NCBI GenBank assembly: GCA_973851085.1
Contig: OZ316775.1
Span: 248,001-312,000 of the forward strand
Direction of reading: 5' to 3'
Origin: Ptychomitrium polyphyllum
Taxonomy: Eukaryota
DNA length: 64,000 nt
A program made the translations under genes and the position numbers. Under the pieces are notes generated by a model that did not search any database, was not told the DNA's origin, and saw nothing but the letters and a program-made list of their open reading frames with translations. Positions 6,901 through 55,466 of the stretch are shown here, piece by piece. Each line of letters begins with the position of its first letter. Position 1 is the stretch's first letter.

Positions 6901-7139
6901 TGCTCCATTTTTGAAGTTTGCAGTTTTTTGTTTGAAAAACATGATTTAATTTTGGATTTTTAAATTTTGTATACAATACCTTGCCTTATAATAGGCATTG
7001 TGGCCATCAATTTACGGTGTTGCCATCACTTTTGTATTGTACATGAATTCTATTCTATGTATTTGTCCAAATAATCATTTGTGGAGTAAACTAAGAATCA
7101 ATATTTTCAATCTCTTTCGTCAAAGTACTTGGTGATGTT

Positions 7140-24265: not shown

Positions 24266-26829
24266 AAAGGGCATAAAAAAAATACAAGGAATTTCAAAAT
24301 ATACTAGTTTGGATTGAATTGGATCCATTATTTGCTCCTCAATGGCACAACATCTTTTATCTTAAAGGAATTATATAACCTTTCCCTATACATTGTCATT
24401 ATTAATAAATTGAAGCATTCGCAATTTTATTTGGTAGATCTTTTAGTGACCATTGTCCAAAATTGAGCATTAAAATGACGAACTTTATTTGGTAGATCAT
24501 TTAGTCATCACCTTCCAAAATTGAGCATTAAAAAAACCAACTACGTTCAAAAAAGAAAACAATGCTTTGCACCATGATTCTGACTCAACAATAAAATCAA
24601 AATCACAACTTTTGCAAAGCCAAATTATTAAATAAAGATTTGGAGGTCTAATGTATAATTCAAGAGTAGACCTACAACTAAGTATCTTGCATTATTGACA
24701 AAGTTCTTTTCTTTAAGCTACAAAAAATCAACATTAACGTGGCTATGGAAGTGGCCACGAATACAAATATTCGTTCATCTTAGTGAAACAAACAATATGA
24801 CACAAATAGCATGGTTCAAGTTAAGTTTACAATTTTATAAGATACACTAGCAAAAGGTGGCCAAGAAAATTGATAAATAGGTTGGATGTACAAATGAAAT
24901 GTATGTGCATTGCAAAATGCTACCAAAACTTGTCCAATGCTATCTTATATAAGAAATAAATCTTCAATGCTTACTTCATTTCTAGATGCAAGAGGAACAA
25001 GCGCTAATTAAGATTTTTAAGAGGAAAAAGAATGTTGTACAAGGCACCATCTATAGAAAGACAAGTGGACAAGAAAAAATAAGGTTAAAGGCAATGAGAT
25101 AGTGTGTAACAAGCACATTAAAGACATTGAAAATAAAAGAATTATGCAACATTGGAATAGACTAGTAGTTGCAAAGAACCTTAATGGTAGGAGAAGTTTG
25201 AAAGTAATTGATATTATGGATATTAGATAGCATATGAAAACAATTAGGGTTAAGAATTAGTCAACAAAGTTCAGATTGTTAAGTTTTGGAACCTTAAGTG
25301 ACCATCTAACAATATGAAAGGTAGTGTAGTAGATAGATTGGCCCATTTCAAAGATATCACCACTCCAATTCAAGTTGGATATAAAATTTCATCTACACCT
25401 AGTAGTAGGAGGCTCAAATGTAAGTAAACATTGAGGGATTTTATTGTTAGGATTAATAATCACCGGACAAACAATTCAAAAATGATATAGCTGAAAGTCG
25501 AGAAGTATAGAGAAAGTATCAAGGCAATAATAAACTAGAATAAAAAATTTTGACATTCAAAACAAAGAAAATGCCAACTTTATTTGAACAAAAACTTCTA
25601 CATTCTAGAAGATTGCAATTTGAATATACATATGTATATATACCTCAATATTTTTGGTAAAGGGTTTTAAATGTAAGTTTAAAGTTCCAAATTCTAAAAT
25701 TTTGGATATGCATAAGTTTCCTTGGATGAATTAATAATGAATAGTGCTAACAACTATCATTCAATAATGTTGAGTTGAAAACTTATATATAATGCCACAA
25801 AGAAGACAATGAATAGTATGTGAATAAGCGTTATTCCATGTGTCTAGCGACAAATTGGACAAGGTTAATTTTGTGGATATATTAAAATAGAAGAATGCTA
25901 TGATTACTGTAGAAAGATGGATTACATGAAGATAATACTTCAAGGCAATGAATGAACCGGATCAGTTGCCCTATGTCAAGGAAAGCTGCTGTCAATGAGG
26001 GCGACGTGAGCTTTAGCTGACCGCTTCTCAAACAACCTCCAAAGATTACTCGCAATAAGTTCTGGTAGCTTTCACTGCAGCTCAAGCACACTGTAATTTC
26101 CAGCCAACATACGGCGAAGCCCTAACTTAATTTAGGCATGCGAGAATGCAGCGGAGAGGTACTTGTTGAACGCAAAGATTCCCTTGCAAGTCTGCCACAT
26201 CAGCAATAATGGGACGTAGGTGGGCCAGACTGGGTTCCAAAATCGATGACCACCAATTCTGGTGGAGCTTCCACTTCAGCAACCCAAGCCGGCCAATCCC
26301 TAACAACTTCTAAATCATAATTATCCCTGTCTCAACCCACTCCTAACCCTAGGTTACACACCCAATCAGTGAGCCAAGTCCTGATTAGTGAAGTCATAAT
26401 AATCACGCTTCCATGCGGGAGCGTCGGAGGAGGACGACGAGACGATGGAGACGAGAGTAATGTTTGCTGAATGGGGGGCGGGCAGGCTCGATTTCCCTAG
26501 AAAGTGAAGTTGAAGTTATTTTATCTTTCCATTACATTGCAGGTGGCTATGGCGGATCACCACTCCTGCTGAGCCCCTCAGGTTCGGAGTCGGAGTCTCA
26601 TGACACGCTCGCCTGCTCGCCTGCCCGCTCCCTCGCACGCCCTGCCGCTGTTCACATGGTGGTGTGCATGGCAGGCAATTAGCTGAGGTTGCTTTTTGGG
26701 GTAGCGGTGGCCAGGGGCATGGTGGCAGCGGAGGGCGATCGTCCCTGGGGTTGATGGGCGGGAAGGTTGGGTGATCTGGTCGTTGACATCGAGCGAGAGA
26801 GAGAGAGAGAGGCGAGGCGGCGGCGCGCG

Positions 26830-29453
26830 ATGGGGAATCAGATGGGGTGCTTCTGGGTCGGCGATGCTAAGAAGAAGAAGCCGCGCGTGGTAGGCGGGTT
26901 GCGGAAGCGCGGGGACTGGGAAAATGAGTTGATCGAGCAGCAGGCCTTGGCGATGGCGTTGCAGCAGCAGCACAAGGCACAGCTGCGCTTCGAGCGGAGC
27001 ATGTCCAACCGAGAGGCTGGCCTAGCACCACCCCGGAAGAGCTACTCGGGCAAGACGGGTGGGGGTGGTAGTAGGGAGGAGTTTAAGCGGAGTGCTAGCA
27101 CTCGTGCCCGTCACATTGATGACTTGATGCTCGATCCTCGTCAGTTTCTTAATGGCTCCAAGGTCTGCTCGTCGGTTTTTCTTATCCAGGATTTTCCCTT
27201 CTTCGGACTTTTTCTTGCATGTGGACAATTGTCCACTGTTTTGCAGCTATTCGGCTGTAGGTTAGGGATACTCATCCACCACGTTAAATGAGTTCTACAC
27301 CTTTCCACATCTTGCCACAGTTGCATGAAAGAGAGGGTGCAGTAGTGTCTCTATTCGAATTTCGCTTCTTAACCACCCTCGATTCACATCTGCAACCATT
27401 GAGCAGCAATTTAGGTTGTAGATAGATGTGGTGTGGTTGCCAAACAGGCTGTCTTAGGACGGCTTTGAGGGTTCTTACTTTCGGCATTGTGTAGGATTAA
27501 GTCATATCATAGTGTTATTGGCAATTGTGTATTAGAGAATAATTCGCTCGGAACTCAATCAAATTGTTAGAGTAACTAGGTGTTGCCATGTAAAAGTATG
27601 GCACTCATTTGGCATACTTAGAGCTTGAAACGTTTGGAGTTTAGAAATGCTCCTGAGAGTATGAGACTGCAGCCCTTCAACGTTCTTGCTATTAGAACCT
27701 GGCTATTCCAGGTTTTTGCATGTCATAGTATGGCTGCGTAGGCGAGGGTGTGATGGATACTTCTCGACTTCTTTAGGGTGGTTGAAGCGATGTCCTGGTT
27801 GAATTCGGACTCGTGTGGTCTCAACATAGTGATGTCTTCTTAACCCCTAAGAAGTTTTTAAGATATTTTTGACTGACTAATTAGTGTGGCGTGCAGGACG
27901 GAGTTGTGAAAGCAAGTATTGAAACAAAGCATTTTGTGTTGGTGCATGGAGGGGGCCTCGGAGCATGGTGCTGGTATAAATCTATAGCGTTGCTTGAGGA
28001 GTCAGGGTTGGTGGCTACAGCCATTGACTTGAAGGGGTCGGGTATTGACTCGACGGATCCAAATCATATCAACAGCCTGGCAGTCTACGTTCAGCCGCTT
28101 ACAGACTTTTTAGAGAAGCTGGGATCTGATGAAAAGGTATAATCTTGTTTTTTGAAGTCCTAGCGAGATTGTCAGTTTCAAAGTCGAGAAATTGACCTCG
28201 AAAGTTTGTTTTTTTCCACCAACGTGCTATTTTGTTAGTTCCTACTCACAGAGGTTGTCATAGGAGACAGGCTCTAAGCATAACATTTTCATGGATGTCA
28301 GAACTTGCTAAGGCGTTCAGAGGAGCCTTAAAAAGTTTTTTATTTGATTGGACCTTTCCTCCTCACAGTGGCTTCAATAATGCAGGTTATTCTGGTGGCA
28401 CACAATATCGGGGGAGCTTGTGTATCGTATGCGATGGAGCGCTTTCCCAGTAAAGTGTCGAAGGCAGTCTTCGTGGCTGCCTCTATGATATCAAATGGCC
28501 AGCGGGCGTTTGATGTGTTTGTGCGGCAGGTACTTCCCACTTTCTCCACCCGATTTCTCATCTGCTTACGATATCTTTCGTTAAGGTTTGAATCTGCATG
28601 CATATTTAAACAGGAACAGCATAGTCCCACATGTAGATACACATACAGTATAAGGAAAATATTGCAAAATCGTAGGGTATGTTGTAACTAACCTAAACAT
28701 AACAGTATTTGATTTGGAGTATTGTTGTTTGGTTTCTTTGCTTTCGATCCTTGGTCCGTTTAGCAACATTTATTGCGTGAGTTTCTACAAGAGTGACTTA
28801 GTTTTAACTGGGTTTGAGATGTGGGTAGGAGAAGAGCGAAGACGACTTGATGCCTAAGGCACAGAAATTCTTATACGGAAACGGAGTTTCTAGTGCACCT
28901 ACAGCGGTGGAACTTGACAGAACTTTAATCAAAGATTTGTTCTTCAATGTTAGCCCGGCTAAGGTATTTTTCATGTAACTTTGTTTACTCTTGTGCATTC
29001 TTTGTGTTCTCCTTTGTGCATTCTTTCTGTGAATCTTAAGGATTATATCACAACAATCAAATTGGCAGTTATTGTTGTTTGAGTTAGGATTTGGGAAATC
29101 TGAAAAAGGACCATGTAAGTCACTCGGTCACTCTTGGATCAACCTTAACCTTTTATAAACATATCGTGCAGGATGTAGCCCTAGCAATGGTGTCCATGAG
29201 GCCCATTCCTTTCTCACCAGCTATGGAAAAGATGGAGTTGACCCTTGAGAATTATGGAAGCGTACGGCGTTTCTACATTGAAACAACAGAGGACCAAGCA
29301 CTACCACCAGAATTGCAACGAAACATCATCAACCAAAACCCTCCAGAACAGGTGTTCACTTTGAGAGGCAGCGACCATTCTCCTTTCTTTTCTAAACCTC
29401 AGTCTCTACATAAAATCCTACTTGACATTGCAATGATTGGTGCAAAAAAATAG
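26830..29453 (+). CDS. Methylesterase-family (SABP2/MES11-15-like) alpha/beta hydrolase with N-terminal extension. Exons 26830-27162, 27897-28136, 28386-28529, 28829-28963, 29172-29453.
   Basis: HFVLVHGGGLGAWCWYK, KVILVAHNIGGACVSYAME, YGSVRRFYIETTEDQAL, GSDHSPFFSKPQSL. All four introns are GT-AG in phase 0. N-terminal MGNQMGC and QALAMALQQQH..RFERSMS resemble the MES11/13/14 clade. Confidence 0.92.
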
Positions 29454-38100: not shown

Positions 38101-40077
38101 CGTCCCCAGCATCCCCACCCATGCAGCCCCTGCCACGTCACGACGCCGCAGTCACACAGAGGGGGCTCATCGATGGGCTCCGAGCAACGCCATCGAGTCT
38201 GTGCATGTGCATGGTGTCCAGTACGTAATTGTTCACTTAGTGTGTATTGAATTAATGGCAAACCTTTGCTTAGTGAACATTAAAACAAACTAACAATGTT
38301 GTTGCATACTTACAATTTGAATAAAAATGTGTCATATGGCATTTGAATTCATAGAATTAACAACCTATCATCCTAAATTCCTAATTTTTTTTTTGCTTTT
38401 CAAAATATAAAGTTGCCTAATGCATTAGCATGTTTCTACCACCATCCAAATATAAAACATAATATATATATAAACACATCATTGTTAGCTATTAGAAAGA
38501 TGTTAATTAACACCACAAGATTTTAAGTATCTTGTCTTATTTTCCTAATTTTATTAAACTTTAAAATCCATCATTTTGGAAAACTTAATAATTTTCTTTA
38601 AGACCATGCTTTTATAAAACTTTGGCTAAATGTATGCAAATTTACAAGAACATCTAAGTTACTTATCCAAATTCTGTTATATTTTATATAAGAAACCAAA
38701 TAAGAATTGCACATCAATTAAAAATACAAAACCTGCTAGAAAATCAATTTATAATGAATAATAAGGTGTCACGTGAAGTGACATTGGAGGGCCACATCAC
38801 GTCAATTAGTTTGTTAAATGGACTCTTATAGGAGTCCATGTTATATTTGGATGAGTTTCATCCAAATTTCAAGGCTCATCCACTTTGGGTTTGGTTGTAA
38901 GTAGGAGAAGAGCTTCTTGACTTGACATTGTTGTCAAGTCAAGTCTTGTGAGTGTATTTTTGGAGAAGAAACATATGTTGTTGTTTTATTGTGGCTATGG
39001 TTTTAATAAAGTCTTAAGCTTTCTGCTACATTTGCACTCTTGGATTCTCCCTTTATGAAATGAGAGATAGCTTGACTCTTATGTGAATGATTAATTGCTT
39101 GAGTGTGGAAAAAAATTAAGTTACTTGACAACAATGTTCTCATATTTACTATAGATCTCAAAGTTGAGTTTAAGTAATTGAAGAAAGTTTGTGAGTACTT
39201 ACTATGTTGTTGTAGAGTGCGGTTAGAGAAAGAGAACTCAACAAACGGTGTATGATTTGGACCTAAAATCTTCACATTTCCTAGATTTCAGAATCTTCAT
39301 TTTTGTGGATTTTAGAATCTTCATTTCTGTAGATTTTAGACAGGAGTCCTAAAAGCGTCAAGGACCTAAATTTATCGGGTCCTAAATCCGTCAGGGACCT
39401 AAATCCGTCTCTATACAGCCTCTAATTTCTCAATTACTGCGACTCCATAACTTTTGCAAAAAATGTTATTTTTGAATTTCGTTTGCAGATTTGGGTTCTC
39501 TAGGGGTGAATACATATATTGGGAAAGAAAACTTTTGGTGATAAAAGTTTTTCAAAAATCACATTTTTACGTGTTTGTTTTAAAATAAAAATAAAACTAG
39601 AGTCTAAACTTTGGAGATGGATTGTAAGGATATTTTGACTCAATTTTGAGCAAAATTTGCACATATATTTGGAATTTTAGCCATTTAATCCAATTTTAGT
39701 GTTGGATTGGCTTTGTGGCAAATTGTATTTCCTAGTGTTGCTATTTTCATTGAGAGATTTGTATTTTTGAACACTGCGGCCAAAGTTTCCCACTATCCTT
39801 TTAGTTTAAGATTTGAGATAACACTTTTAGTGTTTTCTTTTGCATTGCAAGTTTTTGCGACTTTGTGGCTATCAGCCGCAGGCATGTGCTACTTGCTCTA
39901 ATCCACTTGCATTTTGCAATTTGTTGTTGGGAAGAAAATCCAGGCTTTGAATTTCTGGTTTTTGTTATGGTATCTTCCCAGGTTGCGAGCATTGTTGCTG
40001 TTGGTTTATAGTGTTGCTCCATTTTGTATTGTCCATTTGTTCTTTAGATAGTTGCAAGTACCCAAGTAGTCATTTTT

Positions 40078-41580
40078 ATGGTGCAGACACGGAGTCGATA
40101 TTATCGATCTCCGTCATTAGACTACTTAAAAGGTGCACACACCAAAGACTTTGAGCTAGCGGTAGATACCAACAAGGCTTTTGAGCCTATTTTGACGTTG
40201 GATACTACTAGTAGGCTTCGGGTTTGGAGTGTCGACACATTTGACGAGATGGATGACGATCCTTGCCATGTCGTAAGGGATCAATTCTCCGGAAGGGCTG
40301 GGGGCATTTTCCTACCCAATTAGAAGCTCAGGTTTTGGACTTGGATGAAAAAGAAGCGCCAGCGGTCTCTGAATTTCAATAACTGGTACGCATTTGAGCT
40401 GTTGCCATAGCATTTGGAGTTTGAGGCACTTTAGACATATGAGGTGTGGACTCATGAGAATGAGCTCCAATTGCGTAAGGTGAAACGCTATTGGGAGGCT
40501 TGTGCGGAGCTCATTTCTGGCCTGAAGGAAGGTGCAGTAGCCAATTTGATCCCTATAATGAAGATAGAAGAGAAGCCTGCAGAAGGGAGTGGCTCATCTT
40601 CCAAAGACACAAAGGACAAGGCTTCGGTAGTGAGTCAATCCTCTGTCACAATATCACAATTGGCGCAAGCTACGCCAGTAGCGTTGTCTGCAATTGATCA
40701 GCCGCCGTTGTTTGAGCCACTTTGCTTGTTCATAGTTCATATGGAGGTTGAGTATGGAGGCTTCAGGCGTGATTAAATGCAACACATCCAAGACTTCTGT
40801 CGGAAGAAGGAAGATATTCCACATACCATGTATATCCAATTGGCGAGGTTTGTAATGGAATCTGGAGGTGTATTTGCAGAGAGTCAGCTTGTCAAGATCT
40901 TTTTGTCCAAGATTGACAAACAACTGTTAGACTTGGCTATACCAAGGGTTATTTTCAACTACCACGGTTGAAAAACGTTGGCTCAAGCATTTACCAAAGT
41001 TGAGATGTGTGATCGATTTCTCTATTAGTACACTGTCAATGATATGGTTTCTTGGATGAGAGATGCTTCCAAGTTCAAAAAGGCTGCTATTGCTACAAGT
41101 AGTTTGGCAAAGACTTAGGCTGAGAAGATTCTCCATTATTGAGGGTGTGGTAAAGCTGGCCATACCAAGAATGATCCTAATTGCCCAAAGAAGAAGAGAG
41201 CTTCAACGTTAGATAAGTCTAAGCAGAGGGCAGATGTGGTTAAGACTGCAGAGAAGGCCAAGAAGAAGCAGTTGAAGTATTCTTATTGTGGCAATCTCAA
41301 TCATGATGATGATCACTGCTTTATTTGACATCCGGAGAAGCAACCTGTTTTGAAAAATAAAAAAGCATTAGAAGCCAAGATTACAGAGTTGGAGAAGAAA
41401 TTCCAGACTATGGCTTCATTGGGTCATGTTACTGACTTTAGAGTGGTTTCTTGGGGTGGAACAAGCACTTCTGCTTCAAATGTTTATATGTTTGGGGCTT
41501 CAAGGGAGATGGTGGCTGCAATTGCCACATGTGCCCAAACAACAGCCAAAATGATGACAACCAACAGAGGTGAATCACAA
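40078..41580 (+). pseudogene. gag of the outer element, with two degenerate CCHC zinc knuckles
   Basis: Fragmented ORFs at 40078, 40444, 40777 and 41350. Knuckles (Y*)GCGKAGHTKNDPNC at ~41137-41184 and YSYCGNLNHDDDHC at ~41278-41319. Many in-frame stops. Confidence 0.75.
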
Positions 41581-42072
41581 TAGAGCGTACGTACGTATCA
41601 TAGTGGTTCATTAGATTAGATTGGCCAAGCCCGGTTGCCATTATCATTTGGCTTGGCAAATGCTAGTTCTGCATGTCGACCAATTCTTCCAGCTTTAGCA
41701 CAAGATGGAGGAACATCTTTTAGAAACTTGGCACACATTTTGGCACACAAGGTGTTGCATATGCCTATTTTCTCCAGTATTGAGTTGACGACACCAAATT
41801 TTCATCCAACTAGGATTTTTCACTTGGTTGGCAAGATATTGGAAGGCAAGGTGGTTATGCCATCTCTTAAAGTGGCTCAAGTAGTCACTAGGCATTCTAC
41901 AAATGAGGATTTGGCTATGTTGCAGGCCAAGCTTGCAGCTAAAGCCATTGCAGCATTTGTTGCAATTACTTTACAGCAAATAAAGCTAAGTCCTTTATTT
42001 GATGAGCCATTGGCTACATGAGTGGCATATTTATCTAACGTTGCAGCTAGGCCTGCTTGAGAATGTCAAAAC

Positions 42073-42459
42073 TTGCAACCAATAGTGGTGCGGCTAGTTA
42101 ATGACAACAATGTACTTGTTATTAGCTCTATTGGTGGCAATGCAACTTGTACTACACCGGTGAGAGTTATTATGGACTTTGGTGCTCAGCCAGTCATGAT
42201 TGGCAAGCGACTTGCTCAAGAGCTAGGTCTAGGTGATGCAGACTTTGAGCCTTGTGCATTTATTATCATCACTTCAGTTGGAGGCACCGAGCATACTACT
42301 GGCTATACTAGACAACCATTGCAATTGATTCTCCGCATAATTTCTGGACCTCTTTATTTACACTTGTCTCTACAATGTACAATAACCACTCCTACCAACT
42401 ATGAAATTTTAATTGATCAGCAGGCACTTTATCCGCTCGGTTTTGGTTTAGACAATTAA
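42073..42459 (+). pseudogene. Aspartic protease of the outer element
   Basis: VIMDFGAQPVMIG corresponds to the retropepsin D[ST]GA motif (TCT>TTT). YEILIDQQAL corresponds to the ILG motif. Confidence 0.75.
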
Positions 42460-42749
42460 ATTGAAGAGGCGTAGATTAAGCTAGGTTGGTCCGCAAGAGA
42501 AAGAAGGAAAGAATTCATTCATGTAGCATTTGCAGCAATTGCCATGACTATGTCGGCAGAGACTTTATTTACTTGCACCGCCTTAGCAGTAGACTTACCT
42601 TGTGGACCTATTCTGCTAAAGGAGAAATTTGCATTATGTCTAGTTCAGTGGAACAACATGGTTTACTACCTTTAGGGGTTCCTGCACAACATTGCAAAGA
42701 TCCATCACTATCTACCTTTGCCCATCCTATTCATTGGCATCCACCAACT

Positions 42750-43465
42750 GAGGGTATTACCCTGGTGGAGCTATTTTCAAGCATTGGTATCGATTTGGCG
42801 GTAGTTTTGGAGGCCGGACTTAAGGTCCGGCGGTACATTCACGTAGATATTGGCTTTGTATCCAATTGAGCAGCCCAACATCACCTCCAAAGGTTATTGC
42901 TTCTATACCCGGAGCAGTTACCTTCATCTGCCATCCGCGCTTGTTTTGGCCAACTCCCTCAAGATATCACTCTCATTAATGATGAGGATTTGAGGAGATT
43001 GGGCCATGTTGACTTATTCATTGTTGGATGGCCTTATTAAAGCCATTCACGTGCCGGAGCAGGTCGAGATTTGGACGACCCCTAGTCAAGTTTATTTGCA
43101 AACTTGATCTGACTCACACACTGGTGGTTTACACACTAAGCTACATCGCTTGTATTGTACACCTCTCCTTGAAGAATGCCCGCAACACTAAGGGCACAAG
43201 GGGGACCCTGGATGGAGGTCCGGGACTTGTGGCGCCGATATTAAAGTGGCCCGAGTAGGCCAACTTTGGAATGCCCAAATTAGAGACATATCCGAGATCT
43301 TTTGCATTCCGAGCATATGGGCCTTGCAGGGTTTGGGATTCACATTCACAAACTCATGAAGAGCCTACTATAGATGAGAGGGAGCGCTATGTAGTTTCTG
43401 ATAGGCACTACAATTGTTCATGATCTCACTAAGGATCAACGTCGCTTTTTTTTGGGCCAAGTTAT
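42750..43465 (+). pseudogene. DNA (cytosine-5)-methyltransferase domain within the outer element's pol. Its C-terminal end continues at 50004-~50070, after the nested insertion.
   Basis: Motif I LVELFSSIG (42762-42788). Motif II-like YIHVD. Motif III-like QDITLI. Motif IV VDLFIVGWPY*SHSRAG (43026-43040, restorable to GWPCQ). Motif V DDP*SSLF. Motif IX EPTIDERER/AM*F. Motif X RRFFLGQ(A)M|DFNTL, split by the insertion. Confidence 0.88.
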
Positions 43466-44036
43466 TGTTAGGGACACAAAAACAAGAAGCAGAAACAAAG
43501 TGTTTCCCACGAATTAGCTTCCAAGGAGCTAATGATTAACAAGAATTTGATACAAAGACTAGAACAAGGCAAGATTCAAGATGATCTACAACTTATATTG
43601 GCAAGACTAAAGACTACCTTGTCTTGCCTCCTATTTATATTATGACGTTTGTATCTCTTAGATTACTTCTAAAAAAGTTGCCTATAAGGCTTAAGAATGT
43701 TCTAGAAGTCTAAGGAACCTTCCCAAGAAATTTTCCAAAGATGTTGGAAGCTTCCTCAGAAGCTTCCAAGGAGTTGAAACCTTCCATGGAAGTTTTCTAA
43801 GATGTTGGAACCTTCCTTGGAGATTCCCTAAGGTGGTAGAATTTTTTAAGGAAGTTTCCTAAGATAATGGAACCTTCCTAGGAAGTTTTCTAAGGTGGAG
43901 GAGCTATCTTAGGAAGCTTCCTAAAAAGATAGAAAGACTATGGAGACATTTAAAAGTATTCTAAGAAGCTATTATAGTATACTAGAAGGTCTTATAATGT
44001 TTTGAGGACTATGTTGCCTGATCTATGTCCGTAACA
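43466..44036 (-). repeat. 3' LTR of the nested chromovirus
   Basis: Direct repeat of 49432-50003. Contains a ~20-30-bp internal array (GGAACCTTCC..GGAAGTTTTCTAAG) at ~43700-43925. Adjacent to the PPT. Confidence 0.95.
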
Positions 44037-44702
44037 TCACCTCCCTATTTAGCGACGAGTCCTATGAAGAACTGTTTCTTTGGCTTGTTTGTCACATTTC
44101 TATCACTTCTAACATTTGTGGAAGGAATGAAGCAACATATTCTGCTCGTTTTTATTTATTCATTGGTTCAACTAGTCCTTGCAAAAAATACCAACAACTT
44201 CCAGCCAAGACTTCTGTTGTTGAAATGTTCCATCTTAAGATTTGATCTTGATTAAGTCCTTCAAAACATCCTCCAAGTAAGATTTCGGGTCCTCTTTGAA
44301 TGACTCGTCCAATTTCTAACAAGATGACTAAAGTACAAGCATCTAAATTAAGACTGGAATGTGAAGGGCATCTAGCCAATACTTTTGCACAAGGTCGTAC
44401 TTGACGTTGGAATGTTCCTTTCATATCTTGGCTTAGATCCTCTGTTTTCAAAGGTTGAGAAAGTTGATTTGGCTCAACAAATGTTGTTGTTGATGAAGGC
44501 ATGGCCGACTGCTCTTCACGCATATCCATAATAACACAAAGATTTGACATGCTAGCTAGGATCTAGAAATGATCTATTTTGGAAATAATATTGTATACAA
44601 TTAGAGGTTTGGATATCTTTCCTCCCTTCTTATACTTGTCTATGAAGGAAAAACTTCTCTATAAAGCTAACAGCTACTGATGATACATCATCACTGACCT
44701 GG

Positions 44703-47700
44703 TTATTGAGGATATCTTTGATGAAATTCGGATACCTTCGCAGATGCATTTGTTACATTCAATGAAGGTTTCCATGTTCGATCATTGATGCCATATCCTT
44801 GCTAATGTATAAAATACTCTACACATCCGTTCTTGATGCGTTAATTCAAGATCTCTTCCACTTCATATTAGATTTCATTATTGATTTCCAACAGAGGAGG
44901 CGGATGGACAATTCTCTCTGGTATACATGATTTGTTATAGCTTTTCAACAACAATACGTGGAATACTGGATGAATTTGCATGCTTGGTAGTGGCTTTAAG
45001 CAATAACTAATCGGATTTATCTATTTGCTGAAATCAAACGGATCCAACCTTTGATAGTTCAACTTCTTTGATGGTCTTTTTGTTTGTATATTTTGTCATA
45101 GGAGCCATACGCTATCTCCAACTTTGAACTCTAAATGATCCTTTCGATGGCGATCTGCATAAGTTTTGTAACAATCTTGAGCTTGTTGTAACTGGGAGGT
45201 AATTTCTTGATGGATTTTAGTAAGTTGAATTGCAAAATCCTTTGCTGCAGGACTTCCAACATGCTTCACTTGAAATGGATCTGCTCGAGGATGATGCCCA
45301 TAGTTTGCAAAGAATGGACTTTGAGTTGTTAAAAAATGCACCGTATTGTTGTAAGCAAAATTTGCCAAAGGCAAGAGATCCATCCAACTGTCTTGTTGGT
45401 AGTTTATGCTACAACAAAGGTACTACTCCAAAATTTGATTCACATATTTGGTTTAACCATCAATTTGCAGATGGTGTGCTAAAAAAAAGTTAATCAATAC
45501 GTGCAACAGCTAGAATAGAGCCTTCCAAAAGTTGGAAATGAACTGCGGCCCTCGATCGGATACAATATCATCTGGTAGTCCATATATGCGGTAGACGTGA
45601 TTTAGAAACAACTTGCCAGTTTCTTCTCCCGTTGCCGTCTTGTTGCATGGAATGAAATATGCCATTTTGGTAAATTAATCCACCACTACCAAAATAGAAT
45701 CCTTAGAATCGGAATTTGAAAGGTCCGTGATAAAATCCATTGATAAAGACAACCATGGACCCTTTGGCACTGGAAGCGGATGGAGGAGACCATGAGATTG
45801 GTGCCTTGGTACCTTGGCTCTTGCACAAGTATTGCATAATCGAATAAAATCCTTCACGTACTTCCACATTTGTGGCCACCAATAGTCTCTTGCAATCAAC
45901 TCCATTGTTTTATTGAATCCAAAATGTCCTGCTGCTGGAAAATCATGACGTGATTGAAGGATCTTCAACCGCAAAGGGCCTAGAGGTAGGTACAAAAGTC
46001 CTTTATAATAAAGTAGGCCCTCTTGGAATTCAAAATCCTCATCGCTATTTGAAGGACCTCCATTATCTTTGAGGCGCTTTTTTATATTTGATACAAAGAC
46101 GTCATTCTTTAAAGCCTTCTGAATTTCGTCAAGATACGATGTTGTCGTTATAATCGTTACTTTCAATTGAAGATTCTCTGGTTTCAATAACATAGTCCTT
46201 TGTTGATTCAAAACATCATCTCCAGGTTGAGGAGCTAAATAAGATCTTCGAGATAAGGCATCTGGCTTACCTTGCAAGCTACCAGATCGGTAGGTAATGA
46301 CAAAGTCAAATCTGGAAAGCGACATACTCCACCTTGCTTGACAGCGATTCAAAACGTGCACACTCATGAAATATTCCAAGTTCTTGTGGTCTGTGTATAT
46401 CGTAATGGTATGTTGAGCTCCTTTGAACAAGTGTCCCCATTCTTCAAACGCATCCACAATTGCAAGTAGTTCTTTATCATGTATATCATAGTTGATCTCT
46501 GCCGCTAAGAACTTCCTTGAACGAAAGACAAGAGGACAAAGTCTCCCGTCTTCATCATATTGTGAGAGTACTGAGCCAAGCGCAAAATCTGAAGCATCCG
46601 CTTCCAAATAAAAAGGCTTTGATGGATTTGGATGAATAAGAATTGGAGCCGACGTGAATGACTTCTTAAGACTTTGAAATGCTTTTTCCGCCTCCTCATC
46701 TCAAATGAAGTTTTGCTTCCCCATAAGACGTATTAATGATGCCGCAATTTTGGAATAATTCTTGATGAATATTCTGTAGAAGTTTGCAAATCCCAAGAAG
46801 CATTAAACATCTCGAATTGATCTTGGCGTATTCCACTCCATGACAGTGCTTATTTTTTTCTTATCCATATGGATTCCTCCTTTGGAAATGATGTAGCCTA
46901 AAAATTCAACCGATGATTCATGGAAAAGGCACTTCTCCAATTTGGCATGTAATCCTCGCTGGGGTAGTTTTTCTAAGACCAATCGCACATGACATTCGTG
47001 GTCTTGTTCATCCTTTGAATATATCAAAATGTCATTCAAGTAGATGACTACAAAATTGTCCAAATGTTCATGGAAGATATCATTCATCATGTATTGGAAG
47101 ACAGTAGGGGCATTAATAAGGCCAAAAGCCATGACATTGTATTCAAAATGACCATACTTAGATCGAAAAGCTGTCTTCCATTTGTCTCCTTCTTTGATGC
47201 GTACAAGATTGTAGGCTCCTCTAAGATCAATTTTGGTGAATATCTTTGCTTGGCCAAGTTGTTGTAGGAGTCCTGAGATTAATGGTAATGGATAGCGATT
47301 CTTTTTTGTTACTTTATTGAGGCCTCGATAGTCCACGCACATACGTAATGATCCATCTTTCTTCTTTACAAATAAAATGGGTGCTCCAGCAGGTGATTTA
47401 GAATGTTGAATGAAACCCTTTCCAAGGTTTTCATCAATATATTCTCTCAAGGCAGCCAACTCAGTTTGTGATAAGTTATAAATAGGTCCAAAAGGTGGTT
47501 GGGCTCCTTCTTGCAACTCAATGGTACAATCGTATGGCCGGTGCTTTGGTAACATGTCCGCATTCTTCTTTTCAAAAACGTCTTTATAATCTTGATATTG
47601 ACGAGATATGTTTGGATTAGTCTCTATTATAGAGCTAGACATTGGTGCGGCATAAATGGTATAAATTAGTTCATGATATACTGCTCTCATGAGTGTTTTA

Positions 47701-48170
47701 GCTCCAATAAATGATGGTCCAAGATTTCTCGTACCTTGGCGTCTTTTCCTTAAGACCATACTCCGTGAGTGCCAATCAATGTTTAGATTATGTAATTCAA
47801 ACCAGGAAAGGCCCGAGACAATAGGACTTGTTCGGCATTAAATGATGTTGAAGACAATCTTAGATGCATGGTCCTCTAAAACAACCTTTAATGGTTGAGT
47901 TTCTTTAATAACGTTGTTAGATGCAAGAGATCGTCTGTCAATAACTTCAACAAGTGCGGGGTATTTTTTGTTCACTAGCACTATGTGATGTTTGGTTGCA
48001 AAATCCTTGTCCATGAAACATGCCGTTGCACCAGTGTCTAATAGAGCCTCACTAACTATTTCATCATTTAACAATTTAATTTTGATAGAAAATGTAAAAC
48101 AAGAGGTAGGGTTTGAAGGTAATAAGAGACCTTGATTTAATGGTCGTTTCCTTCTGGTGTCCAATTGCAT
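44703..48170 (-). pseudogene. pol of the nested chromovirus (PR-RT-RH-INT-chromodomain), with stops and frameshifts
   Basis: ORFs 47838-48170 (PR), 46803-47759 (RT), 45675-46607 (RH and integrase HHCC), 45096-45383 (integrase C-terminal part). Chromodomain YEVEEILN*RIKNGCVEYFIH*QGYGINDRTWKPSLNV at ~44869-44755. Confidence 0.92.
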
Positions 48171-48178
48171 GGTCCCTA

Positions 48179-49195
48179 CTATGACTGGGCAGCTTCATTT
48201 TCCAACTCCAGCATTGTGCTTTGAGCCTTAAAGGTAGTTCTTTTAATTTGGAAATTGCACACTTTATATCCAAACTTGCCACAATACAAATATAGGTTTT
48301 TTCTTTGACGCCTTTCTTTTTCTTCTAGAGCCAAACATCTAAATTGGGCAGCATCAATTTGTGTAGGTTCTGGTCCTTGTGATTGGCTTTCCGATATTCT
48401 TGAAAAAGTGCTAGCCATGTTTTGATGTACTAATTGCCATCCCAAGCATTGTTCTTGGCGCCTTTCAAATAGTCTGTTGTCACATGCTATTGTTTGAGTG
48501 ATGAATTTGTTCAATGTTTCAATTCTTGGCATTGTGAGTATCAAGTCCTTTACATTCTCTCTTAAATTCCATCGGAATTGTTTAACCAAGGCTTTATCAT
48601 TCCAATTAAGGTCGCAAGTTAATTGTCAAAACTCTGCAGCATATGTATTAGCTAAGTGTTGTCTTTGTTGTAGACTTTGAATCCTTGTCTCAGCCCTCCT
48701 CTCTCGGTCGATGTCTCCAAAAATAGATGTCAATGCTTCTATGAAAGCATCTAAGTTGTTTAATAATGGTGACTGCTTTTCCATTAATAGTACAAACTAC
48801 GATAGTGCATTGTTTATTAAAAAAGTGGCTACAAATCCCACTTGAGTTGTGCCATTAAGATAGCAAGATGGATGCAAACTAAGGAAGAACCTTAGTTGTT
48901 GGGCAAAGCCTCTTAATTTTGATCTTGATCCATTGAATTTGGCCGGCATGCAAATCTTTGGCTTTGTATGGGTTTGACGTAAGCCTTCTCTTCCAATATT
49001 GGCCTCTTACAATCAAACAACCTCTTCATATAGGCTTTGAATATCACAATTGGCTTTTTTAGCTTGCCGAGTGTGTTGCTTCAAATTATTGGTAATGTTG
49101 AAGCAAGCAAGTTCCGTTCAAACTGTGTTTAATAACTCTTGAAGGTCTGCAATAGTTGCAAATCTATTCTCTAATGTTCCAGACACGTTATCCAT
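48179..49195 (-). pseudogene. gag of the nested chromovirus
   Basis: ICMPAKFNGSRSKLRGF, QFRWNLRENVKD, GPEPTQID, and a degenerate knuckle LYLYCGKFGYKVCNF. Stop at 48181-48179. Confidence 0.85.
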
Positions 49196-49431
49196 TTCTT
49201 AAGACTATAAAAAACAAGAAGACTATGAGTACTTTCAAAAGAGGGTAATCCACGTCCTTTAAAAGAAATAATACTTAGTTCTAGAAGAAAAAACCAACTT
49301 TATGGTGCCAGCTTAGAGGAGGGTAATCCGCAACCTCTAAGACGCTATGGAATCCTAAAGAAGACAGGTAATCTATAATCTTCTTCAAAGAACCTTAGCT
49401 CTGACAAAGATGAAGAGTATTCTTGCCAAAC

Positions 49432-50003
49432 TATTAGGGATACAAGAAACAAGAAGCAAAAACAAAGTGTTTCCCAAGAATTAGCTTCCAAGGAGCTAAT
49501 GATTAATAAGAACTTGATACAAAGACTAGAACAAGGCAAGATTCAAGATGATCTACAACTTATATTGGCAAGACTAAAGACTACCTTGTCTTGCCTCCTA
49601 TTTATATTATGACGTTTGTATCTCTTAGATTACTTCTAAACAAGTTGCCTATAAGGCTTAAGAATGTTCTAGAAGTCTAAGGAACCTTCCCAAGAAGTTT
49701 CCTAAGATGTTGGAACCTTCCTTGGAAATTTCCTAAGGTAGCGAAACTTTCTTAGGTAGTTTCCTAATGAAATAAAACCTTCTTAGAAAGTTTTCCAAGG
49801 TGGTGGAACTTTTTAAGGAAGTTTCCTAAGATGATAGAACCTTCCTAAGAAGTTTTCTAAGATGGAGGAGCTTTCTTAGGAAGCTTTCTAAGAATATAGA
49901 AAGGCTATGGAGACATTTAAAAGTATTCTAAGAAGCTATTATAGTATACTAGAAGGTTCTATAAAGTTCTAAGGACTATGTTGCATGATCTATGTCTGTG
50001 ACA
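49432..50003 (-). repeat. 5' LTR of the nested chromovirus, with TATA box
   Basis: Copy of 43466-44036. Minus-strand ATATAAATAG at 49607-49598. Confidence 0.95.
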
Positions 50004-50479
50004 ACTATAGACTTCAACACTTTGGTGTAGGTTTTTGGCATATCTCTTGTTGTCCAACAACATCATGATGGCCATTTGCTTTTCCTTAGGTCAGAGAGCA
50101 ATGGTCAGGGGGCAATAGAGCCAAAACTTAGTGAGGTTGAGGAATTTGTGTTAGTTTTTTGCTTGAAATGGCATGCAACAAAAGAGCTACGGGCTCAATG
50201 CGTTTTTTGTTGCTTTGGCATAAGACTTTGGAAAAGCAGATGCCCAAGAGATATTTTCACAGCTCTTTTTGCAAGGTACTCCATATCCTGGTGAAACCGC
50301 CATCTCACACATGGATGATGGTAGTGAAGCTCCTCATTTGGCTTCTAGTAAAGATGATGGAAGCATGGAAGTTGTTTCTGCCACAGATTAGCGGTTAGAG
50401 GCCGTGTTGGTTTATAGTGGTTCTCAATTGGCAAAGAAAGAGACCAAAGAGTTTGATGATTGGCCATTGGAATTAGGGC

Positions 50480-53400
50480 CACATCTTATAGGTGCGGAAG
50501 CACAAAGGATACGAGATTTTATCTACTTGTATTGCAATTGTTATGCCTTTAGTTTCAACGACCTTGATGGCTATAGAAGCAAACTCATTCACATTTAGTT
50601 GGAGGATGATCATCCAATCTTTCGACGGCCTTACAAATTGAGTGCTTCAGAAAAAATTGGTGTTTAAACTCGTTGTCAAGAGTTATGAGCTGCAAGTTTG
50701 ATTGAGATCTCCAATGAAGAGTATGCTTGTGTCTTAGTGATGCCTTCTAAGAAAGATATATTTGGCAAGTGGATAGAAAATTGGATGTGTGGAGATTACC
50801 ATCCAATTAATCAAAAGACTAAGTCAGACCGGTATCCAATGCTAAAGCCAGAGGAGCTATTTGATGCAGTTGGATTCTCTTGAGGTTTCAGCACTTTGAA
50901 CTTGCAATCTGGCTATCACCAATTGCCATTGTTTGTGGAAGACCAAGTGAAGACAGTATTTTGGAGAATTAATCAAGATTACAAGGATCAACTCTATCAT
51001 TGGAAGTTTCTTTCATTTGGCCTGAAGAATGCACTAGCTAAGTTTTAGAGGTTGATGGACCGGATCTTGATTGGCTTACCATTTGCTAGATGCTACATTG
51101 ATGATGTTATCATCTTTAGTAGTAGCCCACAAGAGCATAAGAAGCATTTACAGACAGTGTTTGAGCGATTACGGCAATGGAGATTGCGCTTACACCATGG
51201 CAAGTGTAAATTCTTCCACGACTAATTACCATACTTGGGCCACATGATTTTTCCATGAGATTTGGGCGTGCAGCAAGCAAAGGTAGATGCTTTGCAAAGG
51301 ATTCCAGCTCCTATCAATGTGTCATGGCTTTGAGCTTTTCTTGGCTTGGCAAATTTCTATCGCAAATTTGTCATGAACTTCAGCTTAATTGCAAAGCCTT
51401 TAACCACTCTTACGGGCAAGGACTAGCCATGGACTTGGAGTTGTGAGCAGTAACAGGCATTCGATATGTTGAAGCAAAGGTTGGATTTAGCTCCAGTGCT
51501 TTGACGTCCAGATGCTACTAGACCGTTTCAATTGCATACAGACTAGAGTGCAGTAGATTGGAAGCGGTTTTGGCACAGAAGGATGATGTTGGGCAGGATT
51601 ATGTCATTGCATTTGCTTTTAGAAGCAATAACAATGCGGAGTCCAACTACTCATCTTATGAGGGGAAGCCTTGGCAATAGTTTGGGCCATTGCTCACTTC
51701 CAACCTTATTTATACGGGCAACGGTTTACATTGGTGACTGTCCATCAACCTTTGAAGTGGCTAATGGAGTCAAACAAAACTGTTGGCAAGCTTGCTAGAT
51801 GGGCATTGTTGCTTCAAGAGTATGACTTTGAGGTTGTACATCGAGCAGGCCTCATCAATTTGGACGCGAATGGATTTTTCCGCAATCCAAGTCTTTCAAA
51901 TTAGGACTTGATTAGAGCCAGATGGCATGGAGATTGCAATAGAGAGGCAGTGCCTGGGAGGCATGCGGTAGCATATCTTACTTTGATATCAGGCTCAACA
52001 CATGAGGTGTCTAATCAAGGCTTAGATGAAGAACTTGACAGAATCCAAGTTGTTGGCGATGTGTGGGAGGACCTTGCGGTCTTGCACAAGCTTCAACAAG
52101 GATCATTTCCTTTAGCTATCTCTGCTATAGAGCACAACAGGATTAGTCACTGAGTAGCAAGATTCCGTTGGGATAATGGCTTGCTATTTTGTGTGTGGCC
52201 GGATGGAGCTAGGTGCATAGTTCTAAGGCCAAATTAGAGAGCTTCCTTAGTGCAGCAAGTGCACAAGGACCTTGGACATTTTGGAGTGCGCAGAATACAT
52301 TCTATGTTGCGCAGTCAATATTGGTGGACTAGCATATATCAACAGGTTGCCATATATGTTTCTTGGTGTGAGGTGTGTGACTAAGTTAGGTCCAATTTTA
52401 ACACCTTATCACCTCAGTTGAGACCTTTATCCATCATGGATTTGGGCTACCATTGGTCTTTAGACATTGTTGGGCCACTTGTTGTCATTCCACGTGGAGC
52501 TAAATACATGTTGGTGATGGTGGAGCATTTTAGCAAGTAGATTGAATTTGTGGCTCTACCACAAAATTCTTCCGAGTTGGCAGCCATGGCATTTCTTGAT
52601 CGCGTCTTGGCACATTTTGAAGCACCTGCTGAGGTGTTAACTGATCAAAGGAGAGAGTTTATTGGATCTTTTGAGGCTTTGTGTTCTAAGGCTTTGATTG
52701 ATCATTGTACAATGTCCAAAGATCACCCTGAGGCAGATGGCTTGGCTAAACGGGTTGTTCAGACCGTAAAGCGTGAATTACGGAAGTATGGATTGTTTCA
52801 TGGCAACCATCCTGATTGGAACTTGATGTTACCGTGGATTGCAATGGGTTACTGCTTTAGCAAGCAAGGATCTTTGGCTTCTTACAGTTATTACCAATTA
52901 TTATATAGACGGGAGCTAAACCTACCTAGCTCAGTGCGTGAGAAGTTGGCTCCAGTTGTGGACTTGGATGACCCTAATATTTAGGCTCAATGTCCACACG
53001 ATTGAGAAAAATTCTTCAAGAGGGCTATGCCTATGGCAATGGAGAACTTAGCTATTGCTCAACATTGTGATAATTTACGATATGCTTGTATCCATAGTAA
53101 AGCTTATTGACCTCAGTTGCAAAGATTCTCTAAGGAAAATTATGTGTATCTGCAACGTGAGGCTTCTACAACACTTGATGTTAAGGCGGGGCGCACAATT
53201 CTTTGTGTGAAGGATGTGTTACCTAGTGGTATCTTGTTGCTTGAAGACAAAAATGGACGAGAGTGTCGGAAGCATTCAAAGAATTGTGTTCCATGTCATC
53301 TTCCTATTGATGGTTCTGTACATTCTGAGCTAGCGGTTGTGCCAGATGGCCTTCTTTGTTTTGTATGTCGTGAGAAGAAAAGAGCTGCTACCATGTTATT

Positions 53401-53500
53401 GTGTGACAAATGCCAACGTAGATGGAACATGGCATGTTTGATATCACCCCTTTCAACTCTACCTTCTGGAGATTGAATTTGGCCTTGTTGTCGGAAGTCT
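50480..53500 (+). pseudogene. RT-RNase H-integrase-PHD portion of the outer element's pol
   Basis: RT: MCGDYHPINQKTKSDRYPM, YIDD at 51094-51105. RNase H: FQLHTD*SA, LAIVWAIAHFQPYLYGQRF. Integrase: HKDLGHFG..WCEVC, WSLDIVGPL, VLTDQRREF, HPEADGLAKR. PHD finger at 53357-53491. Confidence 0.92.
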
Positions 53501-55466
53501 TCCAACCATTTGTCAAATGGTGACAAGAGTTGAGGACTTCTTGGAAGTTTGCCACATGTTTTTGTATTGAAGTTGCCATTCAGCTGGTAGATATAAGTCA
53601 TTGGTTCAATGCTAAGCATTAAGAGAAGTTGATCAAGGGATTCAACATCCAAAATCATTGAAGGCGATTAAAAATGGGGCTCATATTGCATCCCGCCTAT
53701 AATCTTTTAGTTATTTCTCCACTCAATTGCTTGATCCTTTGTATTTGCAACAATACCAACATGGATGTGTACAAGTATTGCAGCAACATTATCATGGCGA
53801 TCATCCACAATAACGTATGTGTTTGTTCCTAGCTGATTGGAGGGACTCCTTATTTGCGAGGGGGGGAACTTGAAGGTGTGTTTGTTATGCATTTGGGTTT
53901 GGTTTTGATTTTATATTTGATTATTGATGCTCACACTCAATTTGTTGTGTGTAACGATCTTTGTTTACACGACTGCTGTTACGTAAAGTAACATCAGAGG
54001 GCCACATCACGTCAATTAGTTTGTTAAATGGACTCCAGTAGGAGTCTATGTTAGATTTGAATGAGTTTCATCCAAATTTCAAGGTTCATCCATCTAGGGT
54101 TTAGTTGTAAGTAGAGAATAACTTCTTGACTTGACATTATTATCAAGTCAAGTCTTGTGAGTGTATTTTTGGAAGAGGAAACTTATGTTATTGCTTTATT
54201 GTGGCTATGGTTCAGTAGCCTTTAATAAAGTCTTGAGTTCCCTCCTATACTTGCACTCTTGGATTCTCCCTTTATGAAGTGAGAGATAGCTTGATTCTTT
54301 TGTGAATGATTAGTTTCTTGAGTGTGGAGAGAAATTAGGTTCTTGAGGATGTGCTTGTTATGCATTTGGATTTGGTTTTGATTTCATATTTGATGATTAA
54401 TGCTGGCACTCGATTTGTTGTATGTGACAATCTTTGTTTATACAACAAAGGTGTTTTTTATAGAAAGTATGTGTAATGGCTTTGAAAGAAGCTCTATTAA
54501 AGCCCAAGTCCAATATACATTTAAAAATCGTTCTAAAAGAAGTAGAGAATTTAAAATAACAATGAATTAGATTTATAATAGAAGCAAATTAAAACAACAT
54601 AATGACTATAAACCATAGAAGAAATGGCACTTGAATACAATTAGTATTGTTAGAATAGATGACGATGTTATATTGGTAGTATTTAAGAAATAAAAGTGCA
54701 AAGCAAACAACATCAACATTTATAGCCTTTTGTATTGAAGATTATCAAACACATTTTAAATATATATGTTTAATATTCACATTTGAATACATTTATTAAT
54801 TATATTAAATATATTTTGAATATACTTTATTACATAATTAAAAATATAATGGATCCACCAAATAAAGCATTGTATTTTATAACCCATGGCATCAAGTGCA
54901 AAATCAATAAAAAGAACATATTTTTTATTCTTTCACATAAATTTGTATAAAAATTGTATTAGTACTTGTATTTTGAATACAATCTAATACATGTGTTTTG
55001 ATTCAAAGTACATACATATGCTAAAATATTGAAGTGTCATTTTTACTCTATACTAAATTATAATATTTTCTTTGCTAAATTCCATTAAATATGATAAAGC
55101 TTATGAGTGAAAATTGTATGATATTCAAAAGAACAAAGATACTTCCAATTTCCTAAGAATTATAAATTATTACATATTTTTAATGGCTTAATTTTGCAAT
55201 CATAATTTAAGATATTATAGTAGATATCATGCATCCTAATGTTCTCAATTTTAACTATAGGTATGGCAATATTGGTGCTAGTAGAGCCTTGCAAAATTTC
55301 TATATGCACATCATATATCATAACATATATCAAATGGTAGAAAGAGTATCATTGAACTTTATAACTTAGGAATTTTCAATACAAAAGTGGATCCTTCAAT
55401 TGCATGTATTTTTGTACTACATTATTTAACTGAAACAATTCTCAATCAAAGAGCACCTCAAACTTA

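What the first reader, a model, noticed from the sequence alone, without database searches (positions are those of the whole stretch)
53858..54454. Split direct repeats (A...B-A-B) on a DDE-integrase element
Seen: the 5' end begins with block A (38767-~39128) and then diverges. The 3' end reads PPT (53858-69), B1 (53871-53973), short spacer, A2 (53977-~54346), B2 (54344-54447). No B occurs upstream of A1. The unit TG(38767)..CA(54447) is flanked by AAGG (AAGGTGT if the TGT is included). The B1|A2 join CACGAC-TGC-TGTTAC resembles the junction formed by joining the two element ends. Established: A1-coding-B1-A2-B2 is the layout of PAT/Ngaro-type tyrosine-recombinase retroelements, not of canonical Gypsy elements. 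Inference: either this family replicates by a non-canonical route, or this copy arose by template switching (CTTGA microhomology lies at both B starts and at the A1 divergence point).
Basis: partly seen in the sequence, partly recalled or inferred. Interest (0 to 1): 0.72.

Follow-up and report, generated by a model that had tools for sequence, protein, structure and literature searches.

The report
Gypsy retrotransposon with internal integration site
This decayed plant Gypsy retrotransposon has split end repeats (A...B-A-B), as do many related copies, likely because its DNA copy is joined end to end and the integrase then cuts an internal palindromic site instead of using the ends.

Summary
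The layout is real and lineage-wide. The window element (38767-54447, 4-bp TSD AAGG, nested LTR element inside) is a decayed Gypsy with gag-protease-Dnmt3-like methylase, UAG, RT-RNaseH-DDE integrase-PHD and no tyrosine recombinase. In 80 related metagenome loci, 31 (23 independent insertions, two other families) end PPT-B-A-B; five show the whole A...B-A-B. None of 14 5' ends has B upstream, so ordinary LTRs were never seen. B1|A2 is a fixed CA-GC-TG palindrome; A2|B2 varies in length between copies (9/17 vs 0/17 in one family), with primer-site and PPT remnants. A Tf1-like self-primer pairs with the sequence just behind A1 in all three families. Best reading: ordinary self-primed reverse transcription makes linear [BA]-internal-[BA]; its ends are joined anew each cycle; the integrase opens the internal palindrome. 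The layout itself is published once, in a figure legend, for Klebsormidium KnitGypsy-Dnmt3; the mechanism was not found in ten searches. The mirror product (A-B-A...B) is missing and unexplained, and no intermediate was observed.

The parts
38763..38766 (.). left target-site duplication AAGG
   Evidence: same 4 letters at 54448-54451
38767..39122 (+). A1: left repeat, starts TG; holds the predicted promoter and transcription start
   Evidence: 89% to A2 without gaps; 6 X1 contigs have unrelated flank before the A start
38924..38939 (+). predicted 5' end of the transcript = self-primer
   Evidence: pairs over 16 nt with 39123-39138; closes the minimum-energy fold of 38924-39145 (z -2.1); compensatory change in L001
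39123..39138 (+). predicted primer-binding site (self-priming, no tRNA TGG)
   Evidence: 9 X1 contigs of other copies continue from A into this sequence without B
40078..43465 (+). ORF1, broken by many stops and frameshifts: gag, zinc knuckles, aspartic protease, first part of a Dnmt3-like C5 methyltransferase
   Evidence: 67-78% to the open ORF1 of L001; PF00145, E 2e-13 in L001; best PDB hits DNMT3A/B
43466..50003 (-). nested unrelated Gypsy element with ordinary LTRs (about 570 nt, 90% alike), inserted in the methyltransferase; decayed 5-bp TSD
50004..50391 (+). end of ORF1 and in-frame TAG (50389-50391) before pol
   Evidence: L001 has ORF1 (1369 aa), one TAG, then pol (1047 aa) in the same frame
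50392..53530 (+). pol, broken: RT, RNase H, H2C2 zinc finger, DDE integrase core, PHD finger
53860..53868 (+). polypurine tract (G7-AA)
   Evidence: a G run abuts B1 in both other families
53869..53974 (+). B1: predicted left end of the linear cDNA; ends in the CA att half-site (T at 53974 here, A in other copies)
53969..53982 (.). B1|A2 junction, CA-GC-TG palindrome: predicted integrase cleavage site
   Evidence: 2-nt spacer in 23 of 23 independent B-A-B insertions
53977..54341 (+). A2
54337..54347 (.). A2|B2 junction: predicted join of the two cDNA ends
   Evidence: length varies in 11 of 24 relatives; no gap in the listed bridging contigs of the window's own family
54342..54447 (+). B2: right terminus, ends CA
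   Evidence: 4+5 X1 contigs have unrelated flank behind 54447/8
54448..54451 (.). right target-site duplication AAGG

Best explanation
This is a decayed copy of a lineage of Dnmt3- and PHD-bearing Gypsy retrotransposons whose members share the A...B-A-B layout, and it likely integrates from an end-joined cDNA that the integrase would open at an internal CA-GC-TG palindrome. Steps: (1) RNA starts inside A1, about 30 nt behind a TATA box, and its first 11-16 nt prime the minus strand at the site just behind A1 (pairing shown, priming inferred). (2) The plus strand is primed at the G tract before B1 (position shown). Ordinary strand transfers then give linear [B-A]-internal-[B-A], whose true ends (B start, A end) carry no usable att sites (inferred). 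(3) The right end of A is joined to the left end of B in every cycle, by host end-joining or by an RT end-to-end jump (variable junction shown, agent unknown). (4) The DDE integrase cuts both strands after CA in the B|A palindrome, which yields two CA-3'OH ends with 2-nt 5' overhangs, and inserts with a 4-bp TSD: A-internal-B-A-B (termini, lost spacer and TSD shown, cleavage inferred). Cutting at both palindromes, or later B x B recombination, gives the common A-internal-B copies.
For: Lineage-wide layout: 31 of 80 loci end B-A-B (29 of the 60 with 800 nt or more behind the match); 0 of 14 independent 5' ends (13 in loci plus the window) have B upstream. Termini are always TG.. of A and ..CA of B with the 2-nt spacer lost; 4-bp TSD exact in 8 of 12 two-ended copies, one mismatch in 2, none in 2. 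B1|A2 spacer is 2 nt in 23 of 23 B-A-B insertions, GC or its C>T/G>A decay in nearly all. A2|B2 differs in length in 9 of 17 family-2 and 2 of 7 family-1 insertions (read by eye; Fisher p 0.0009 and, pooled, 0.0002); variants include 1-2 nt matching the primer site, a G or CG matching the PPT end, a 19-nt insert and deletions; five sister copies in one supported clade (96/92) have five different junctions. B1 and B2 of one copy are closer (0.072) than B2 to other B2 (0.114) or B1 to other B1 (0.102). Primer/PBS pairing of 9-20 nt in three families with unrelated sequences, TATA at about -26 to -32. L018/L019 (one insertion): A2 continues into a PBS copy, folds back at the primer site, runs as inverted A and ends exactly at CA, which shows that the PBS is copied behind A2 and that the palindrome half-site is what ends up at the terminus. 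Precedent: foamy-virus integrase cuts a palindromic 2-LTR junction with 2 nt between the CAs (PMC1180852); Tf1 cDNA keeps PBS and PPT tails (PMC11042837).
Against: A symmetric circle has two equal palindromes and should also give A-B-A-internal-B; this was seen in 0 copies against 6 A...B-A-B (p 0.03), so an asymmetry must be assumed (e.g. the left palindrome becomes double-stranded first). In the window's own family the listed contigs that bridge A|B show no gap and no junction indel is tabulated. The modal junction still covers 7-8 of 17 and 5 of 7. The tree is largely star-like (4 of 26 inner branches well supported), so non-inheritance of junctions is shown only weakly. Family-1 pairing beats shuffles poorly (0 of 4 above the maximum of 40 shuffles). 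Two two-ended copies (L028, L039) lack a TSD. No circle, cDNA, transcript start or cleavage was observed. The loci come from few metagenome sources and two families.
Confidence: 0.6

Rival explanations
1. No circle: the integrase assembles on the left palindrome of the linear [BA]-internal-[BA] cDNA and inserts it, leaving B on one chromosome arm and the A end on the other; the host then joins these two free ends. Same product, same variable junction.
For: Everything on termini, TSD and junction variability fits equally. The snap-back copy L018/L019 shows that a linear molecule with two separate half-sites can be inserted.
Against: Repair of a chromosome break would be expected to delete more; most junctions differ by 0-2 nt. 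It does not explain the missing A-B-A...B form either.
Confidence: 0.17
2. PAT/Ngaro-like templating: the RNA runs into B2, both junctions are copied from the parent, and B1-A2 serves only as template to rebuild a circle junction, which the DDE integrase opens.
For: Same layout as tyrosine-recombinase elements (PMC5890265; PMC2685390). Many copies share one modal A2|B2 junction; no junction indel listed in the window's family.
Against: PPT sits before B1 and a self-priming site behind A1, as in ordinary LTR replication; A2|B2 varies among sisters while B1|A2 does not; B2 groups with its own B1 rather than with other B2s.
Confidence: 0.15
3. One-off rearrangement of an ordinary LTR element by template switching at CTTGA, or a solo LTR next to a truncated element.
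For: CTTGA occurs at both B starts and just behind A1 in the window; tandem LTR structures are common in plants (PMC11899658 abstract).
Against: The layout recurs in 23 independent insertions of two other families without CTTGA and in other copies of this family; ordinary two-LTR copies were seen 0 of 14 times.
Confidence: 0.02

Closest known systems
KnitGypsy-Dnmt3 of Klebsormidium nitens (de Mendoza et al. 2018, PMC5890265)
   Same: Gypsy domain set, Dnmt3-like methyltransferase in the polyprotein region, repeats arranged as in DIRS elements (A-coding-B-A-B) per the Fig. 1e and 4c legends.
   Different: The text read gives no junction, TSD, primer or mechanism, and does not mention PHD; there the methylase is in the Pol ORF, here (L001) it ends ORF1 before an in-frame TAG. 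No Klebsormidium sequence was available, so common descent is untested.
PAT-like / Ngaro tyrosine-recombinase retrotransposons (split direct repeats)
   Same: A...B-A-B layout; probable circular or end-joined intermediate.
   Different: These lack protease and integrase and use a tyrosine recombinase (PMC2685390); this element has protease, DDE integrase, TG..CA ends, 4-bp TSD and no recombinase.
Tf1/Sushi group and plant Tcn1 self-priming Gypsy elements
   Same: No tRNA PBS; 5' end of the RNA pairs behind the left repeat (PMC6317226); ragged cDNA ends reported for Tf1 (PMC11042837).
   Different: They have two ordinary identical LTRs with att sites at the cDNA ends; Tcn1 carries a chromodomain, this lineage a PHD finger.
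Foamy virus 2-LTR circle cleavage (PMC1180852); IS3/IS30-type circle junctions (recalled, no call)
   Same: A DDE enzyme opens a palindromic junction of two abutted ends with a 2-nt spacer that is lost on insertion.
   Different: There the junction is made by joining the cDNA or transposon ends; here it is a permanent, inherited site inside the repeat, and the end-to-end join is a second, sloppy junction carried into the insertion.

Membership tests
Ty3/Gypsy LTR retrotransposons | gag, protease, RT, RNase H, integrase in this order | tested here: met
Ty3/Gypsy LTR retrotransposons | TG...CA termini with a short TSD | tested here: met
   4-bp TSD exact in 8 of 12 two-ended copies
Ty3/Gypsy LTR retrotransposons | two identical LTRs, the right one directly behind the PPT | tested here: not met
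   0 of 14 5' ends carry the B that follows the PPT
Ty3/Gypsy LTR retrotransposons | RT phylogeny inside Ty3/Gypsy and placement among named plant clades | not tested
   no reference RT set was at hand; the only tree built is within family 2
PAT-like / Ngaro elements | split direct repeats A...B-A-B | tested here: met
PAT-like / Ngaro elements | tyrosine recombinase; no protease or integrase | tested here: not met
   no recombinase family in the two main ORFs or the 7 other frames of 120 aa or more of L001; protease and rve integrase present
KnitGypsy-Dnmt3 type | Gypsy domains with DIRS-like repeat arrangement | tested here: met
   against 6, 38, 43
KnitGypsy-Dnmt3 type | Dnmt3-related methyltransferase in the polyprotein | tested here: met
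   PF00145; top PDB hits DNMT3A/3B, E 7e-8; found in 21 of 24 sequences scanned
KnitGypsy-Dnmt3 type | common descent with the Klebsormidium elements | not testable with these tools
   no hit named Klebsormidium; named relatives are Marchantia, Riccia, Calypogeia, Sphagnum, Coleochaete
Self-priming (Tf1-type) elements | RNA 5' end complementary to the sequence just behind the left repeat | tested here: met
   above all 40 shuffles in the window, L001 and 7 of 7 family-2 copies; not above them in 4 of 4 family-1 copies, where a 9-11-nt match and the snap-back copy support it
Self-priming (Tf1-type) elements | transcription start at the primer's first base and cleavage by RT/RNase H | not testable with these tools
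   no RNA reads laid; TATA spacing only

The most novel reading that the evidence does not exclude
A whole green-plant Gypsy lineage has moved its integrase attachment sites from the cDNA ends into an inherited internal palindrome, so that an end-joined (2-LTR-circle-type) cDNA is the obligatory precursor of every replication-competent insertion; split direct repeats in general, including those of tyrosine-recombinase elements, would be circular permutations of an ordinary two-LTR cDNA.
Probability: 0.45. Interest if true: 0.88.

Novelty: new variant of a known kind. Interest (0 to 1): 0.76.

Why it matters
Whether end-joined 2-LTR circles are real integration precursors is an old dispute for retroviruses; here a natural lineage appears to depend on such a join, with young intact members (L001; open ORF1 and pol proteins) that could be assayed. 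It offers a concrete route by which split direct repeats arise from ordinary LTR replication, and a reason (ragged ends left by self-priming). In practice, LTR finders that demand two near-identical TG..CA LTRs (PMC6317226 methods) will miss or mis-bound these elements, and their Dnmt3-like domains occur in Marchantia gene models named 'hypothetical protein'.

Tried and rejected
No whole genome is held for the window, so the genome-wide copy census and the empty-site check could not be made. IMG/VR: no match to an A motif and no relative of the integrase. Earlier findings of the scan: nothing by place, words or sequence. First idea, that A1 is a full LTR that lost B by a private deletion: rejected, other copies run from A into the same internal sequence. 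B-A-B as a TRIM inserted behind the PPT: rejected, no TSD around it, fixed position in three families. Summed contig depth over A and B is about 2-4 times that over pol, which would fit solo A-B units, but the tool says depth is no copy number; not used. X3 laid nothing; X1 and X2 are one sample and may be the source of the window, so they show other copies, not independent support. L001 reads internal-B-A-internal and is probably a collapsed assembly; not counted as a form. Dropped before counts: 16 loci without a family-1/2 repeat hit (11 with under 350 nt behind the match; L001; L022, L050, L052 and L047-type ends interrupted or unrelated), duplicates by flank, loci with a cut B (L025/L064, L040, L041), L073 (deletion across B|A), L055 and L065 (A2 cut). 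L023 ends inside B2 and was counted as independent on sequence alone. A pairs look more diverged than B pairs in 4 of 5 copies, but transversions do not differ (p 0.30). The REM1 paper was not held.

Full report
Observation. Self-alignment of the window confirms A1 (38767-39128) to A2 (53977-54346) at 86% and B1 (53869-53973) to B2 (54342-54446) at 86%, with no further B. The unit starts TG, ends CA and is flanked by AAGG. The window is eukaryotic, with intron-bearing plant genes; named relatives of the element's proteins are from liverworts, Sphagnum and Coleochaete, so a bryophyte host is likely (inference).

Coding content. The host element is badly decayed but reads gag, zinc knuckles, protease, C5 methyltransferase, RT, RNase H, H2C2, integrase core, PHD. 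A nearly open relative, L001 (81-86% DNA identity over the coding part), has ORF1 of 1369 aa with PF00145, one TAG, and pol of 1047 aa in the same frame; the methylase is closest to DNMT3A/B among solved structures. No tyrosine recombinase was found in any frame of 120 aa or more. An unrelated Gypsy element with ordinary LTRs is nested in the methylase (43466-50003).

Other copies of the window's family. Laying contigs of two runs of one sample: 9 X1 contigs continue from A into the sequence that follows A1, without B; 6 have unrelated flank before the A start; 4+5 have unrelated flank behind the B end; 53974 is A in 4 of 4. So A-without-B at the 5' end is the family norm.

Relatives. An integrase-PHD alignment of 12 proteins fetched the best 80 of 546 confirmed metagenome loci (49-86% protein identity to the query). 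Two families with repeats unrelated in sequence to the window's account for 64 of them. Forms behind the PHD: B-A-B 31, B only 26, B-A cut or altered 5, A-B 1, 5' end only 1. After merging by flank: 23 B-A-B and 19 intact B-only insertions (plus L023). Five loci hold a whole A...B-A-B and six a whole A...B. None of 13 independent 5' ends in the loci, nor the window's, has B upstream. TSD: 4 bp, exact in 8 of 12, one mismatch in 2, absent in 2.

Three junctions behave differently. PPT|B1: B starts right behind the G run throughout. B1|A2: CA, two letters, TG in 23 of 23; the two letters are GC or its deamination products in nearly all, giving a short palindrome whose halves are the element's termini; the spacer is absent from the termini. 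A2|B2: length differs from the mode in 9 of 17 family-2 and 2 of 7 family-1 insertions (scored by eye; Fisher tests), by -2, -1, +1, +2, +19 nt or larger deletions; the +1/+2 letters match the primer site behind A1 and the G/CG letters the PPT end. A1|internal shows no length change in 7 of 7. In a supported clade of 8 copies the five B-A-B members have five junctions and B-only copies are mixed in, though most of the tree is unresolved. B1 and B2 of a copy share subfamily variants and are closer to each other than to their counterparts elsewhere. Against this: the bridging contigs listed for the window's family have no gap.

Priming. No tRNA-type PBS follows A1. Instead a stretch in the middle of A pairs with the sequence at A's end in all three families: 16 nt in the window, 20 nt with a compensatory change in L001, 13-16 nt in 7 of 7 family-2 copies (all above 40 shuffles), weaker in family 1. 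A TATA box lies about 26-32 nt upstream in L001 and both families (degenerate in the window). RNA begun at 38924 folds with this duplex as closing stem. One insertion (L018/L019) has A2, a PBS copy, then inverted A from the primer site back to A's first base, ending in CA at the flank: a plus strand that carried the PBS folded back on the primer site, and the palindrome half-site became the terminus.

Mechanism. PPT before B1 and PBS behind A1 define, by the standard LTR pathway (established knowledge), a linear cDNA [B-A]-internal-[B-A]. A...B-A-B is the circular permutation of that molecule joined end to end and opened at the left B|A palindrome. Cutting after CA on both strands across a 2-nt spacer gives the recessed CA-3'OH ends with 2-nt overhangs that retroviral-type integrases use (follows from the geometry; shown for foamy virus in PMC1180852). 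Only this form has A sequence at both ends of the RNA and can be copied again (inference). Shown: layout, termini, TSD, junction patterns, pairing. Inferred: start site, priming, the join, its agent, the cleavage. Unexplained: no A-B-A...B copy (0 vs 6).

Literature. de Mendoza et al. 2018 (PMC5890265: passages, section 9, search of 3 supplementary text files; Fig. 4c itself not seen) state that KnitGypsy-Dnmt3 has DIRS-type repeats with Gypsy domains; 'KnitGypsy' occurs in no other held paper. Also seen: PMC6317226 passages, PMC11899658 abstract, bioRxiv 2022.06.16.496473 passages (PHD-bearing Gypsy-7a of Chlamydomonas, whose left LTR lacks the last 8 bp), PMC1180852 abstract and section 9, PMC11042837 passages, PMC2685390 passages; PMC1905944, PMC4372172 and PMC7192593 only as search listings. 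No description of this lineage in bryophytes, or of the internal att site and variable join, turned up in searches; subscription journals, theses and Repbase notes are not covered. The likeness to IS3/IS30 circle junctions and the UAG-CAR-YYA readthrough motif are recalled, not from a call.

Verdict. Real, lineage-wide, layout known from one algal family, mechanism apparently undescribed and directly testable. Interest 0.76.

Noticed in passing
window 42732-43478; L001 3760-4730 and most long loci: The lineage carries a Dnmt3-like C5 methyltransferase between protease and RT; 62 relatives found, several annotated as hypothetical genes of Marchantia. A bryophyte counterpart of the charophyte Dnmt3 retrotransposons.
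   Followed up: partly
window 50389-50397; L001 5083-5091: Single in-frame TAG between ORF1 and pol followed by CAG-TTA in L001 (CGG-TTA in the window), a readthrough-type context (motif recalled); other relatives have one continuous ORF.
   Followed up: partly
window 43466-50003: Younger nested Gypsy element on the minus strand, LTRs 90% alike with internal 31-bp repeats, inserted in the methylase gene; its 5-bp TSD decayed in both copies from the sequence still seen in L001.
   Followed up: partly
L018 3363-3880, L019 1414-1930: Snap-back insertion: A2, primer-site copy, inverted 5' half of A ending at CA.
   Followed up: yes
window 6880-8114: Older fragment of a related element (5' region and gag, 64-67% to the host element and L001), without recognisable repeats.
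   Followed up: partly
window 21540-22150: Fragment related to the nested element (integrase piece and LTR piece, about 68%).
   Followed up: no
window 38916-38943: The primer site lies in a local palindrome (hairpin); family 1 has a similar hairpin at its primer site.
   Followed up: no
window 11000-19750 (minus strand): Multi-exon gene with HEAT-like pieces resembling CAND1 (name recalled, not tested); a methylesterase-like gene at about 26750-29450 on the plus strand.
   Followed up: no
P0096: A 1043-aa pol of this lineage is labelled as from an uncultured cyanobacterium, probably plant DNA in a bin.
   Followed up: no
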